Assembly (NCBI RefSeq): GCF_009914755.1
Contig: NC_060928.1
Length of the DNA: 64,000 nt
Reading direction: 5' to 3' (one strand)
Source: the human T2T-CHM13v2.0 reference genome, Homo sapiens
Part shown: in pieces, positions 50,335-57,654 of the stretch
Layout of the letters: each line of letters starts with the position of its first letter
Position numbering within the stretch: position 1 is the first letter of the stretch
Notes under the pieces: model-generated
Seen by the model: the letters and a program-made list of their open reading frames with translations, nothing else
Told to the model about the DNA's origin: nothing
Database searches by the model: none
Translations under genes and position numbers: made by a program

Positions 50335-50587
50335 CTTGGTTTTAACAAAGCCTGTAACTTCAAATACTATGTTGTCACTCATTTCAATGAGCACGTGTCA
50401 GATAGGCTTCTCAAGATCCCTGGAACTAATAACATTCAGCAGCTCCCAGAGATATGGCCTTCTTAAATTTGTTTCTGTTGATGTCAATACCAATGATCCT
50501 GGAAGCACCAGTAGCTTTGCAACCCATAATAATAAAGAGACCAACTTCACCCAGGCCAAACACAGTACAAGTTAGAAAGAATTTGAC
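50335..50587 (-). pseudogene. ADH pseudogene exon 6
   Basis: 253 nt (261+1-9); tttag|[52 protein letters not shown]/(+1 fs)/[31 protein letters not shown]|gt. Confidence 0.9.
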
Positions 50588-52436
50588 CTAAATTATCAGA
50601 AGACACAGACATCCAAAGGCAATGCAGGCTGAGAAAGTGAGTGGACCCCATTCCACTGGGAAAGGGAGGTGATGTTTCTGGTCAATTTGTCTTTTTAAAT
50701 TATTAAATCTTTCAAATCACACTTTCCTTTGAAAGGAACTTGAGAGCTTTATATGATGTACTACCAATCTCTAGACAACAGAGGAAAAGATTTCTTATAG
50801 GAATGTCAGAAACTAGTATTAGAATTGTCAAAATTATGATTCCCCTAAGGGCTTGGAGAGCAGTTTCCAATTTTTCTTTTTTAGGTTGAAGACCAGTTGA
50901 GTAGCAGTAGCTGTCGATGTAACTTTCTCCCTTTGGGCATTATATTTACATGAAGGAAGCTGCAAAAATTTTATTTTACCCAGCCACTGTGATTCAGTTT
51001 TTGGTGTCTACTTATGAGGTTGCCATGCATAAAAAACAGAAATATGTGGCTAAGAATTTCCTAGAAATGCACATAAAAATCTGTACTGACTGCATCTCCT
51101 TTAACCAAGGATACACATGTAATGATTCTAAATGATTCCATTCTAATGATTAGGCTAAACAATTCTAATAAAGTACGCATCCATAGAATCTATTTAGTAA
51201 CTGTCATTCCTTATAAAGCCTTTATTCTCCTTTGAAATAACTGGAAGGGGGTACGAAATGTGACTAAGGCTCATAAAAATGAGAAAGGGCAACAAAAGGT
51301 AGCTGAATTGTTATCTTTAACCCGAACCTATTTACCTTTGTTTAGAAGAGGACAACACTTAGGTTCCATTATTGCACTAAAAAAAGCCAGTTAACTTATG
51401 CAATCTTCCTGAAAAGGGTGTTTTTTTAAAAAAATAACTTCTTGACTGAGAAGCCCTTGGCCCTTCAGGCAATTTCTGTTGAGACAGAAATGGTCAGCAC
51501 CTTCAGTCATTAGTTCAGTGTCACTTCTTTTGGGGGATTGTCTATTCATGGTAGTCAACTGAGCATACACAATGCCCAGTTACCAATGGAGCATAGGCAG
51601 TTTATAAAGTTATGAATTTGTGTCAGACGTGAGAGTTGCAAAAATCAGTAGTATTAGGGGGTTTTATTTCTTGATAGATTTATTTGGGCCTTTAAAATTT
51701 GGCCCCAAATGTTGTAAGCAGAAATTCTTGTAGACAAAGGACAAATGAAAGAGCTGTCTTCTTTCCCTTTCTGTTCTCCACTTTAAGACAGCCCAGACTA
51801 GTATATGAGGGTATTTAAATTTCCTATACCAAAAGAGAAGACCAGCAAACTCTTTACTTTTCATATTCCAGTTTTCTTCAAAAAGCAAGCTTTCTAAATG
51901 ATAATCTCCTAAAAATACCAGTTAAGAACAGATGCTACCATTTTGCTAGTACTTTATGAGAGAACTCCAAGAATCCTAATGAGTTGCTATCCCACTCTCA
52001 ACACTTCCCTTTACTCCTGTTTTCCATGCATTCTTTTCTATATGCAAGAAAACAAAGAAAAATGCAATAAGTAAATGTAAAATACTAAGTGGTATAAACT
52101 AAGTTGTGTATTCTCAAATGTGCTAAGCAACAAGGAAGCCTGACTTGTAACATTATGTGTTTGTTCCTTCCTTTCATTTTGTGAAAATTTATAAAACCAT
52201 TAAACCTAGAATGGGGGAAAAGAAGGCAACCATAAAAGCTGAAAAATGGCAGTCTTGGGCATACATCTCTTCCTCCTACCCCCCTTTCTTTTGTGCCTTG
52301 AGCTTTTTAAACAGGATGGCCTGAAGGAGGCATCACAGAGATGAGCTTGGTTTACTTCTTGTATACATTAAATGCAAGAGCCTATGATGGAGGCTTTAAA
52401 AGACTGTGATGGAAAAAAGCCAATCTAAATCCTTAC

Positions 52437-52653
52437 CTTTGCATTATTTATTCCTGCCCTCTTCCTGCAAGTAATCCACAGCCTATCAAACATACTTTTT
52501 CTAGTGGAGCATCAGGATCAATTTTGACAAATGCACTTTCTCTTAACACTGTATTCAGTGAAGGTGCTTGTGTTAGGGAGTTGGTAGATTGGTTTTCTTT
52601 TACAGGTAAATCTGGTGGTGTCATCAGCCATGGTTTCACAAATACCATCAAAG
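52437..52653 (-). pseudogene. ADH pseudogene exon 5
   Basis: 217 nt; [34 protein letters not shown]/(-2 fs)/[31 protein letters not shown]/(-1 fs)/GINNAK|gtaag; 81-nt intron 4, short like ADH7 intron 4 (97 nt). Confidence 0.9.
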
Positions 52654-52734
52654 CTTAGTAAAGCAAACCATAAAAGCACATATGAGAGATGAATGGAGGT
52701 ATAGGATGAAATTTTAGTAATTAAAGAGACCTAC

Positions 52735-54205: not shown

Positions 54206-56454
54206 CTACACACCCACTAGCATGTGGCAAGAATCAAAAAATGAGGATGTAGCAAAATAAGAGCTCTCCTATGCTGCTGGCAGGAGTGTAAAACAGTATG
54301 GCAGTACTCAAACTACAAAACACAGAGTTACCCAGGAAAAATGGTAATGTATGTCCACACAGAATCTTGTATGTGAATATTCATAGAAGCATTATTTACA
54401 ACAGCCAAAATGTAAAAAAAAAAAAAAAAAAAATCCAAATCCTCATCAATTCATGATTGGATAAATAAAATGTGGTATCCACTGGAAAATTATTCAGCCA
54501 TAAAAAGAAATGAAATACTGATACATGTTATAGCATGAATGAACCTTCATGCTAAGTGAAAGAAGCCGGACAGACACCAAAGACTACATATCATATGATT
54601 CAATGTATGCAAAATGTTTAGAATAGGCAAATCTACAGAGACAAAATAGGAGATTGCACATTTCTTAGGGCTTGGTCAGTGGAGGAGGAATGGGGGTAGC
54701 TAAAGAGTACAGAGTTTGTATTTAAGGTGACAAAAACGTTCTATAGCTGACTATGGTGATGGTTGCACATATTTGCAGATATACTAAAAACCATTGAATT
54801 GTCCACTTTAAATGCGTGAATTGTGTGGTGTGTGAAATACACATCAATAGAGTTCTTAATGCATTCAGTAAGTTAGTGGTAAAGACAGAAAGCATTTAAC
54901 AGCTATCTCTCATTGGCACTTGGCAATTTTATACATTAGCCATAGTAGCTCATGAAATATTTTTTTCCCTAAGAAGAGAACTAGGAGAACTCTCTTATTG
55001 TTTATTAAGATTCCTGAGAGGGAAAAGATTTCTGTTACAATATTTACATCTTGATGATAACTGAGGAAACCGCTCAAGAGGTGAAATCTAGTTTTGAAAC
55101 ACAACACTGGGGACATTGGAGATGATGGGCCTGGGAAGAACTGGAGGTAGAGAGGCCGTTAAGCGGCCCCCACCTCAGATCTCACCCAGTAGTCTTGTTA
55201 CCTTCTGAGTGAGGCAAGGTTAAAATTAAGAAGAAGGAAGAAAAGTGAAGACAGTGCTTCAGAGAAAGAGAGGGCTTTTATACCTAAAGAGGAATAGAAA
55301 TTTAACCTGTGAGACACATTGTCCCTAGTCAAATGAATACTAGAACCTCAAATGGCCATGCCTCAGGTCACTTTAGCTAAACCTACTCACTTCACTCCAT
55401 TTGTCAGAAACCCAAAAAGCTGACACCTCTAATTTTTAATTTCATCTCTATGATACTGGTAAAGTAAAATCTTATTAAATCACAGGGAATTTATTCAACT
55501 TTCTGGAACTTGGTTGAAATTATGTTGGATCATTGAACCTCTATCTGACAAGCCACTTCTTTGGGGGAAGTTTTACTGGATGACCATGGAATTGAGTTAC
55601 TATGGTAACTATGTCATATGGGTATAATAAGGGCTGTGTTATTTCAACTTCCAAGATTATCTGGCCTGAGTTTAGGGGCAAGAAACCTAATATTTTGACA
55701 ACATCTGAAAGAAAAAACTATTAGAAGTAAAGAAAATATAGAGGATATTTCTGATTTAAGATGATAAACTGAGCTTACATGTTTAGCTCTTCTCCAAGAG
55801 CAAAAGAATTTTTAAAATATCTATAAATTAATATATATTAATTATATATATTTATATATAATATATAAAAATATATGTACACACACATATATCTCCACTA
55901 TAATGAAGACATAAGGAAGCTCTCATCAGACACCCTAAATATAACCTGGCCAAATTCAAGCTCCCTATAGTGCCTCAAAATCTACGCTTTCCATAGCCTT
56001 CTTTTCTGTAAATTGCAATCCCAATGTACTTACTAGTCTTTCTACCCAAACTTTGAAGTCATCCTGATGCCTTTATTTCTCACACTTTAGCAAGTTCTGT
56101 TGACTCTATCTTCAAAATATACTTAGAATCCAATCACTTTTCACTACTTTCATACTATCATCCTGGTCCAAGCTATCATCACCTCTTGTGTTTACTGCTA
56201 TAATAACATCCTAACTTGCCTCCTACTTCCACCTTTATTTCCTCCTCATCTCTTTTTTTCAGTATGGCAGCTGAGTGTTCCTTTTAAACATATAAGAATG
56301 CTTATCATTTTTACTCAAAATCATTTAGGAGTAAAAGTCCTTACAGTGTACTACAGTGTTCTACTTCATGTCCATTTAAAACACACTATTTAATTAAATG
56401 AGGCTTTATGTGTATCTTCTTTGTTTAAATTTGTATCTGTCATTTTCAATTTAT

Positions 56455-57266
56455 TCTTTTTTAGTTTAACTTTTATTTTAAGTTCAGGGATACATATGCA
56501 GGTGTGTCAAATAGGTAAACTTGTGCCCTGGGGGTTTGTCATACATATTATTTCTTCACCCAGGTATTAAGCCTAGCACTGATCTTCTCCTTCCTCCCAC
56601 TCTCCACCCTGCAATAGGCAATTGAAGAAACTTTTCAAAAGAAGATATACATGCAGCCGGCAATCATGAAAAAACACTCAACATCACTGATCATTAGAGA
56701 AATGCAAATCAAAACCACAAAGAGATACCATCTCACACCAGACAGAATGACTGTTATTAAAAAGTCAAAAAATAACAGATTCTGGTGAGATTGTGAAGAA
56801 AAACGGATGCTTATACACTGTTGGTAGGAGCGTAAAATTAGTTTGACCACTGTAGAAGATGGTTTTTGTGATTCCTCAAATTCCTAAAGACAGAAATACC
56901 ATTTGTTCCAGGAATCCCATTACTGGGTATACCCAAAGGAATATAAATTGTTCTATCATAAAGACAGAGGCACACGTATGTTTACTGTAGCACTATTCAC
57001 AATAGCAAAGACATGAAGTCAACCTAAATCAATGGTAGACTGGATAAAGAAAATGTGTTACATGTACACCATGGAATACTGTGCAGCCATAAAAAAGAAC
57101 AAGATCATGTCCTTTTCCGGGAACATGGGTGGAGCTGGAGGCAATTATCCTTAGCAAACTAACTCAGGAACAGAGAACCAAATACCACATGTTCTTACTT
57201 ATAAGGGGGAGCTAAATGATGAGAACACATGGACACATAGAGGGGAACAATACACACTGGGGCCTA
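56455..57266 (-). mobile_element. Short 5'-inverted old L1 (3' end minus 56455-56619; inverted part plus 56627-57266)
   Basis: Plus part ends ...acactggggccta and the minus part begins (in L1 sense) gcctattgcagggtgg, contiguous in the L1 3'UTR. Confidence 0.8.
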
Positions 57267-57515
57267 GCTTTCTTTTTATCTTGTTCACTGTCACCAGAAT
57301 GTAAGTTCTATGAGAGGAGAGATTTGGTTCTTTAATTTTTAAAAAAGATTCAGCACCAAACTATTACTTAGCAGATAGTTGGCACTAAATATACACTAGT
57401 CAAATCTATGATAGGATGAAGATCATACTGGAATTCCTCTTTCCAATCTGTAAACTGTCAGAAACCACCACCCCCCAACACTATTTGACAAGTCTCTACT
57501 TTTGTGTTATTTTAC

Positions 57516-57654
57516 CTGGTTTTACCTTTCTCACTCCTTTTCCAATACTCTCTACAATTCCAGCTGCTTCGTGTCCTAGAAGAAATGGATATTTAGTTTT
57601 TAATTTTCCATTAATTGCACAGTCGTCTGTGCCACAAAAGCTGATGGCCAGAAT
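57516..57654 (-). pseudogene. ADH pseudogene exon 3 (still open)
   Basis: 139 nt, tcacag|ATT CTG GCC ... CCA G|gtaaa; ILAISFCGTDDCAINGKLKTKYPFLLGHEAAGIVESIGKGVRKVKP (27/46 aa identical to ADH7 exon 3 by hand count). Confidence 0.92.

What the first reader, a model, noticed from the sequence alone, without database searches (positions are those of the whole stretch)
50335..57654. The relic is not an ADH7 copy and mixes features of different ADH classes
Seen: exon 3 is only 27/46 aa identical to ADH7. Repaired exon 5 is 220 nt, so it lacks the one-codon deletion that makes ADH7 exon 5 217 nt. Cys46, His67 (GHE), Cys174 (IGCG) and the NAD-selecting Asp223 (GIDIN) are retained, but position 47 is Gly (CGTD) and His51 is Cys. 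Known (from recall): Gly47, no His51, exon 4 ending ..QF, NTSTF and DLxKPI resemble class V ADH6, whereas a 139-nt exon 3 is class I/IV-like. Inference: it may represent a separate ADH class, possibly one that is absent as a functional gene in primates. Post-death drift may account for some residues.
Basis: partly seen in the sequence, partly recalled or inferred. Interest (0 to 1): 0.7.

Follow-up and report, generated by a model that had tools for sequence, protein, structure and literature searches.

The report
Lost eighth human alcohol dehydrogenase gene
Upstream of the human ADH7 gene lie six broken exons of an eighth alcohol dehydrogenase gene that is no recent copy of any of the seven working ones; it likely was an old sister of ADH7 that worked for a long time and likely died around the origin of primates.

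Summary
It is no recent copy: dS to ADH7 is 1.13, equal to ADH7 versus ADH1A-C (1.08-1.17); protein identity is 55% or less to all 87 reference proteins. Only 11 of 64 invariant residues changed and branch dN/dS is 0.36, so it was under selection for most of its life and has decayed only about 0.08 substitutions per site. The 'class V mix' is weak: human class V also has the 217-nt exon 5, has a 142-nt exon 3, and 0 of 9 class V marker residues match. Placement inside eutherian class VI, the class known to be lost in primates, is rejected (AU p 0.014-0.018). Best placement: the amniote class I/IV group, sister to ADH7 on DNA, weakly supported; sister to ADH6 is not rejected. No intact orthologue was found, but that search was too insensitive to exclude one. 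The locus probably already carries a GENCODE clone name (RP11-696N14.3); no paper on its origin turned up.

The parts
57655..64000 (-). In-window part of intron 2 (21.7 kb in all). It runs on to exon 2, which lies outside the window at window-relative 79367-79466 (chr4:102,813,367-102,813,466; locus L002): 100 nt, 2-nt deletion, acceptor and donor both damaged
   Evidence: (exon 2 E 1e-12)
57516..57654 (-). Exon 3: 139 nt, open frame, AG/GT intact; C46, G47, T48, D49, D50, C51, H67, E68; carries the one-residue deletion near position 60
52735..52810 (-). Exon 4: 76 nt, 12-nt in-frame deletion; structural zinc ligands C97 and C100 lost, C103 and C111 kept
52654..52734 (-). Intron 4, 81 nt: the short type, as in ADH7 and ADH1A-C (97 nt) and ADH6 (116 nt), unlike ADH4 and ADH5 (over 2 kb)
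52437..52653 (-). Exon 5: 217 nt raw, two frameshifting deletions (2 nt and 1 nt), 220 read through; C174
50335..50587 (-). Exon 6: 253 nt; G202E in the GxGxxG loop, D223-I224-N225, K228; 1-nt insertion, TGA at 50400-50398, 9-nt deletion
48347..48478 (-). Exon 7: 132 nt (4 nt short, two frameshifts), AG/GT intact; I294, P305, V306, F309; last exon detected
   Evidence: (E 8e-9)

Best explanation
This is the dead remnant (exons 2-7, nine indels, a stop, two zinc ligands lost) of an eighth gene at the 5' end of the human ADH cluster, which likely arose by tandem duplication in the class I/IV lineage, likely as a sister of ADH7, and likely encoded a working NAD-dependent zinc alcohol/aldehyde oxidoreductase until about the origin of primates. 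Shown: exon structure, lesions, same strand and tandem place beside ADH7, class-level distance from all seven human genes, excess of silent over replacement change. Inferred: age of the duplication (as old as the class I/IV split by dS), time of death (0.08 substitutions per site, range 0.04-0.15, converted with recalled primate branch lengths), sister relation to ADH7, and activity. By its residues (C46/H67/C174/E68, D223-I224-N225, T48, L57, I110, F116, I294, V306, F309, G47) it would have worked like class IV, a high-Km enzyme for medium-chain primary alcohols and retinoids or their aldehydes, with weaker coenzyme binding. Today it cannot make an active enzyme.
For: Mixture-model tree puts it in the amniote class I + IV group, 94/92. 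It has the one-residue deletion near position 60 found in 11 of 11 mammalian class I, 8 of 8 sauropsid class I, ADH7 and 61 of 62 class VI, absent from II, III, V and VII (also stated in PMC4028059 section 19). Nearest proteins: tinamou ADH1 55%, ADH7 55%, ADH6 52%, mammalian class I 49-53%, class VI 38-50%. On DNA, ADH7 is nearest in dS and dN (P 0.97 versus ADH6; 133 versus 93 informative sites, sign p 0.009) and is the sister in both the partitioned and the codon tree (bootstrap 65 and 59). Long selection: branch dN/dS 0.36 (0.20-0.65), like the 0.23-0.39 of live classes I, II, IV, V and VI in PMC4960878 Table 2; 11 of 64 invariant columns changed, whereas an ADH7 copy decayed neutrally to 55% identity would change about 28 (21-35) of 63. 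The only matches between its region and the seven human genes outside exons were interspersed repeats. Marsupials carry three and bats two ADH7 paralogues (PMC10336374 section 10), so extra genes of this lineage exist.
Against: The branch is long (1.37) and its place is unresolved: AU does not reject sister to ADH6 (p 0.49), to mammalian class I (0.50), to all class VI (0.25) or even to human ADH1A-C on protein (0.21); FastTree joined it to ADH6 at 0.875; on DNA sister to ADH6 has p 0.44 and 0.59. Relic (GC3 0.33) and ADH7 (0.46) are both more AT-rich than class I (0.50-0.53), which can shrink their distance. Classes II-V were each represented by one human sequence. A death near the primate root predicts intact orthologues elsewhere; none was found, though stand-in sequences scored 376-436 bits against a listing cut-off of 421. 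The simulation does not allow for ADH7's own change, so an earlier death is not firmly excluded. Pocket residues may be post-death changes.
Confidence: 0.58

Rival explanations
1. It is an old paralogue of class V (human ADH6) that came to lie at the other end of the cluster.
For: FastTree sister to ADH6, 0.875; AU does not reject it; QF, FKKA, DLxKP and NTSTF all occur together only in ADH6; exon 4 DNA is closest to ADH6, 55 of 88 versus 47 of 88 for ADH7.
Against: 0 of 9 testable class V markers of PMC4960878 Table 1 match; exon 3 is 139 not 142 nt and exon 5 is 220 not 217; dS and dN to ADH6 exceed those to ADH7; both are long branches, and the mixture model separates them.
Confidence: 0.17
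2. It is a hybrid gene made by unequal crossing-over or gene conversion: exons 4-5 from a class V-like gene, the rest from a class IV-like gene.
For: Informative sites favour ADH6 in exons 4+5 (40 versus 33) and ADH7 elsewhere (100 versus 53), Fisher p 0.006; PMC6060901 argues for crossing-over within genes in this cluster (passages).
Against: The grouping was chosen after seeing the data; the six-exon test gives p 0.054 and intact ADH1A gives p 0.006 in the same test; exon 5 lacks the one-codon deletion of ADH6.
Confidence: 0.1
3. It is related to class VI, the class present in non-primate mammals and lost in primates, either displaced or branching before the platypus gene.
For: G47 (97% of class VI), the position-60 deletion, D50 and P305 fit; sister to all class VI is not rejected, p 0.25; no other class VI remnant was found in this genome.
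Against: Lowest identity of the classes tested, 38-50% over 62 proteins; placement with eutherian class VI or either subclade is rejected, p 0.018, 0.014, 0.014; a fused camel gene model runs ADH7, class I, class VI, so that class VI gene lies downstream of class I, not upstream of ADH7.
Confidence: 0.08
4. It is a very old duplicate that died early (before or near the placental ancestor), and its odd residues are only neutral drift.
For: No intact orthologue found; no ADH appears in the main text of two lists of human gene losses; exons 1, 8, 9 were not detected.
Against: Invariant columns give d 0.084 (0.042-0.151), far below branch dS 0.69 (0.39-1.17); dN/dS 0.36 excludes 1; one stop codon in the read-through; 10 of 12 splice sites are intact.
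Confidence: 0.07

Closest known systems
ADH7, class IV (sigma) all-trans-retinol/alcohol dehydrogenase
   Same: Tandem neighbour, same strand; 139-nt exon 3; short intron 4; T48, D49-D50, NTSTF, NYG, F309; nearest human gene in protein (55%), dS and dN.
   Different: 220-nt exon 5 (ADH7 217); G47 and C51 for R47 and H51; estimated identity before death about 65% (59-75%), around the lowest within-class IV value of 68.7% in PMC4960878; dead.
Amniote class I ADH (human ADH1A-C; bird and reptile ADH1)
   Same: Exon sizes 139 and 220; position-60 deletion; CGTDD as in ADH1A; tinamou ADH1 is the joint nearest protein (55%).
   Different: Placement inside the human class I trio rejected on DNA (p 2e-5); T48, F309 and the exon 7 sequence are closer to class IV or sauropsid class I than to mammalian class I.
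Extra ADH7 paralogues of marsupials (three) and bats (two), PMC10336374
   Same: Additional genes of the class IV lineage; some have a bulky residue at site 294 (Ile in one koala paralogue), as the relic does.
   Different: Their sequences could not be fetched, so orthology is untested; the bat pair is inferred by the authors to be a bat-specific duplication.
Class VI ADH (rodent Adh6a/b and orthologues), lost in primates
   Same: No working human gene; G47; position-60 deletion.
   Different: 38-50% identity; placement inside eutherian class VI rejected; different place in the camel cluster.
Class V ADH (human ADH6)
   Same: G47, no H51, QF, NTSTF, FKKA, DLxKP.
   Different: None of nine class markers; different exon 3 and exon 5 lengths.
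GENCODE label RP11-696N14.3
   Same: A SNP given this label in PMC9525649 maps by offset to about window-relative 68,600, inside the relic's intron 2.
   Different: That the label is an unprocessed ADH pseudogene is recalled, not checked; the RefSeq table given shows no gene here.

Membership tests
Vertebrate zinc MDR alcohol dehydrogenases | Catalytic zinc ligands C46, H67, C174 with E68 | tested here: met
Vertebrate zinc MDR alcohol dehydrogenases | Four structural zinc cysteines 97, 100, 103, 111 | tested here: not met
   Y97 and S100, each one base from a Cys codon; likely post-death
Vertebrate zinc MDR alcohol dehydrogenases | Conserved nine-exon structure and phases | tested here: inconclusive
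   Exons 2-7 in order with matching phases; exons 1, 8, 9 not detected
Vertebrate zinc MDR alcohol dehydrogenases | NAD-selecting D223 and GxGxxG loop | tested here: met
   D223-I224-N225, G199, G201, G204 kept; G202E
Amniote class I/IV/VI group | One-residue deletion near position 60 (139-nt exon 3) | tested here: met
   PMC4028059 section 19
Class IV (ADH7) | 217-nt exon 5 (one-codon deletion) | tested here: not met
   40 nt before the RFTC arginine, 220 read through
Class IV (ADH7) | Supported clade with class IV; within-class identity of about 69% or more | tested here: inconclusive
   Sister on DNA at bootstrap 59-65, not rejected on protein (p 0.47); identity 55% now, about 65% (59-75%) before death; only one class IV sequence available
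Class IV (ADH7) | High-Km ethanol and retinol activity, epithelial expression | not testable with these tools
   needs an intact orthologue and an assay
Class V (human ADH6) | E49, M50, K51, G141, F255, R/C265, L295, V299, G305 (PMC4960878 Table 1) | tested here: not met
   0 of 9 match; position 265 lies beside a deletion
Class V (human ADH6) | 142-nt exon 3 and 217-nt exon 5 | tested here: not met
   139 and 220
Class V (human ADH6) | Clade with class V | tested here: inconclusive
   AU p 0.49 (protein), 0.44 and 0.59 (DNA); FastTree joins them, the mixture model does not
Class VI | Nested in eutherian class VI | tested here: not met
   AU p 0.018, 0.014, 0.014
Class VI | H51, F141, M/V255, A265, A295, S299 (PMC4960878 Table 1) | tested here: not met
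   C51, P141, I255, V265, V295, T299; D50 and P305 are compatible
Class I (human ADH1A-C) | Recent primate triplication, dS 0.07-0.15 among members | tested here: not met
   dS 1.37-1.71; inside-trio placement rejected on DNA, p 2e-5 and 3e-8

The most novel reading that the evidence does not exclude
The relic is the only human trace of an undescribed seventh mammalian ADH class, as old as the class I/IV split, that stayed functional into early primates and survives as an intact gene in some living mammals (perhaps filed as an 'ADH7-like' paralogue), so the enzyme can be expressed and assayed and the primate ADH cluster lost two classes, not one.
Probability: 0.3. Interest if true: 0.55.

Novelty: new member of a known kind. 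Interest (0 to 1): 0.37.

Why it matters
Papers read here count seven human ADH genes in five classes, with class VI as the one primate loss (PMC4960878, PMC4028059). This locus shows an eighth gene of class-level age that was under selection for most of its history and is not class VI. If an intact orthologue exists, it adds an enzyme to mammalian alcohol and retinoid metabolism and may explain some 'extra ADH7' genes that complicate studies of ethanol adaptation (PMC10336374). It has no likely effect on living humans as a protein. An alcohol-use GWAS lead SNP maps into its intron 2, most likely through linkage with the ADH cluster.

Tried and rejected
Searches for an intact orthologue: exon 3 against longer proteins gave 4 hits among 10 candidates, none an orthologue; exon 6 gave 0 of 10; a class VI scaffold plus three relic pieces listed 120 of 6450 hits, and those placed in the tree or classed by BLAST were class VI, I, III, VII or fused models; exon 3 against 50% representatives gave nothing between the human sequence itself and about 64% among ADH-like hits covering the exon. 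None of these excludes an orthologue. PDB: best hits are human class I, then class IV. Exons 8 and 1: no hit by DNA profile (102 kb), protein profile or pattern (132 kb) around the relic; exon 9 is too short and was sought only by a motif scan. Intron homology to the seven human genes: only interspersed repeats. Class VI remnant elsewhere in the genome: none with a donkey and a colugo class VI query (lower-bound searches; the DNA between ADH6 and ADH1A was not read directly). My recalled Ensembl id ENSG00000248676 was wrong: PMC12746921 places it beside MTTP. No structure was predicted: the gene is dead and in pieces. The Atlas and the earlier-findings store gave no result. Ten literature searches found no paper describing this locus; three key papers (Hoog and Ostberg 2011, the opossum ADH paper, Janiak 2020) and the supplements of PMC4028059 and PMC10336374 could not be read and may mention it.
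Full report
Anatomy. With the ADH7 exons of the window as query, tblastn found a second ADH-like gene on the minus strand, 32-42 kb upstream of ADH7. I fetched the flanks and the other six human ADH genes, rebuilt their coding exons and made per-exon profiles. They detect six exons in order: exon 2 at 79466-79367 (outside the window), 3 at 57654-57516, 4 at 52810-52735, 5 at 52653-52437, 6 at 50587-50335, 7 at 48478-48347, with E-values from 1e-40 to 7e-5. 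Exons 3-7 keep AG/GT ends; exon 2 has lost both. Exons 1 and 8 were not found, nor exon 9 by a motif scan. Lesions: nine indels, a TGA at 50400-50398, C97Y and C100S, G202E. It is an unprocessed pseudogene and cannot encode an active ADH.

The counts hold (27 of 46; 139 nt; 220 nt read through; C46, H67, C174, D223, G47, C51). The class V reading is weak. Human ADH6 has the same 217-nt exon 5 as ADH7 and a 142-nt exon 3, so 139 and 220 is the class I pattern. CGTD is in ADH1A and 36 of 62 class VI proteins, not in ADH6; NTSTF is in ADH7 too. None of nine testable class V markers from PMC4960878 Table 1 is present. What does point to ADH6 is QF, FKKA, DLxKP and the DNA of exon 4. Residues shared with one class alone split 4-4-4-4 among II, III, IV and V.

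Age. Over 294 codons, dS to ADH7 is 1.13 (0.85-1.63), the same as ADH7 versus ADH1A-C (1.08-1.17), and 1.37-2.41 to the other genes; among ADH1A-C it is 0.07-0.15. Outside exons, only repeats align to the human genes. The duplication is therefore of class-level age. dS is near saturation, so this is a floor, not a date.

Selection and death. Of 64 columns invariant across eight class groups, 11 differ in the relic, giving 0.084 substitutions per site since death (0.042-0.151). A neutrally decaying ADH7 copy needs d 0.30 to fall to 55% identity and would then change about 28 (21-35) of 63 such columns (ADH7's own change is not modelled, which weakens this test). The relic's branch has dS 0.69, dN 0.25, ratio 0.36 (0.20-0.65), close to live classes (PMC4960878 Table 2). 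With recalled human-lineage branch lengths (about 0.06 to the simian, 0.12-0.13 to the primate and 0.17-0.18 to the boreoeutherian ancestor), death falls near the primate stem, the upper bound near the Euarchontoglires root. Identity to ADH7 before death would be about 65% (59-75%), at the boundary between classes.

Placement. One search listed 120 of 6450 hits; I used 79 of them (leaving out fused, partial and near-duplicate entries), one unnamed reptile-like protein, the seven human proteins and the relic for a FastTree of 88 rows, and 35 of these 88 for the mixture-model tree. FastTree joined the relic to ADH6 (0.875). The mixture model put it in the amniote class I + IV group (94/92, not starred), in an open fork, on a branch of 1.37. 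AU tests rejected only placement with eutherian class VI or its two subclades (p 0.018, 0.014, 0.014); they did not reject sister to ADH6 (0.49), ADH7 (0.47), mammalian class I (0.50), all class VI (0.25) or human ADH1A-C (0.21). On DNA of the eight human loci the best tree has it sister to ADH7 (bootstrap 65; codon model 59); sister to ADH6 is not rejected (0.44, 0.59); inside class I is rejected (2e-5, 3e-8). The position-60 deletion ties it to the I/IV/VI group and away from II, III, V and VII (PMC4028059 section 19). A fused camel model runs ADH7, class I, class VI, so that class VI gene lies on the other side of the cluster. Limits: one sequence each for classes II-V, a long branch, and shared low GC3 with ADH7. 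Exon-wise mosaicism is no stronger than in intact ADH1A.

How it worked (inferred). Catalytic zinc ligands and D223-I224-N225-K228 mark an NAD-dependent zinc ADH. T48, F309 and a bulky I294 resemble class IV more than mammalian class I; G47 and the lack of H51 would weaken coenzyme binding and proton relay, but C51 and P141 may be post-death changes (roles of these positions from PMC4028059 Table 5, PMC4960878 and recall). Most likely it was a class IV-like high-Km enzyme for medium-chain alcohols and retinoids or their aldehydes; about even odds.

What is known. Marsupials have three ADH7 paralogues and several bats two (PMC10336374 section 10); the relic may be the placental remnant of one such gene, which I could not test. 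No intact orthologue was found, but stand-ins scored 376-436 bits against a listing cut-off of 421, so absence is not shown. A SNP labelled RP11-696N14.3 (PMC9525649 table) maps to about window-relative 68,600, in intron 2, using an offset from rs1229984 that put rs971074 in ADH7 exon 6; that this label is a GENCODE ADH pseudogene is recalled only. Ten searches found no paper on its origin, and word finds in two gene-loss papers (PMC2864566, PMC2134963) showed no ADH in the main text. Seen: PMC4960878 parts 1-3 of 5 and its supplement; PMC4028059 passages and section 19; PMC10336374 passages and section 10; passages only of PMC6060901, PMC12746921, PMC13651202, PMC9547508, PMC10775504, PMC9525649, PMC12916498, PMC8369952, PMC2864566, PMC2134963. 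Not readable: Hoog and Ostberg 2011, the opossum ADH paper, Janiak 2020, and the supplements of PMC4028059 and PMC10336374, any of which may mention this locus.

Verdict. A real, old, long-functional and now dead eighth ADH gene; not a recent copy and not the lost class VI gene; most likely a deep sister of ADH7. It is probably annotated already as a nameless pseudogene, but its identity seems undescribed. New member of a known kind; interest 0.37.

Noticed in passing
window 57661-57972: A young Alu sits just upstream of the relic's exon 3 acceptor, with an 11-nt target-site duplication (57675, 57962) and an internal 7-nt tandem duplication at 57897; the AluYb8 label, and so a human-specific and perhaps polymorphic insertion, is recalled.
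   Followed up: partly
window-relative 74848-79051 (loci L001-L002): An L1 in relic intron 2 in two oppositely oriented halves (5' inversion), about 93% identical to an L1 in ADH7 intron 5; read as an independent insertion, not shared ancestry of the introns.
   Followed up: no
window-relative about 68600 (locus L001): rs111466094, a lead SNP for problematic alcohol use labelled RP11-696N14.3 in PMC9525649, maps into relic intron 2; likely linkage with the ADH cluster.
   Followed up: partly
G000:C6:66989273-66990397 minus: Intronless ADH copy with a 380-aa open frame and no stop, likely a processed ADH5 copy; broken intronless copies lie at C1:239583502, C1:79359699, C1:52041780 and C5:24087967.
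   Followed up: no
proteins P0005-P0101: Class VI forms a 100/100 clade with platypus and marsupial members and two eutherian subclades (about 375 and 382 aa); colugo has a member (P0039), and databases name most of them 'alcohol dehydrogenase 1-like' or 'class V'. No class VI remnant was found in the human genome.
   Followed up: partly
window 44981-47580: Old L1 fragments and Alus lie just past exon 7, where exons 8 and 9 would be expected; the 3' end of the gene may have been deleted.
   Followed up: partly
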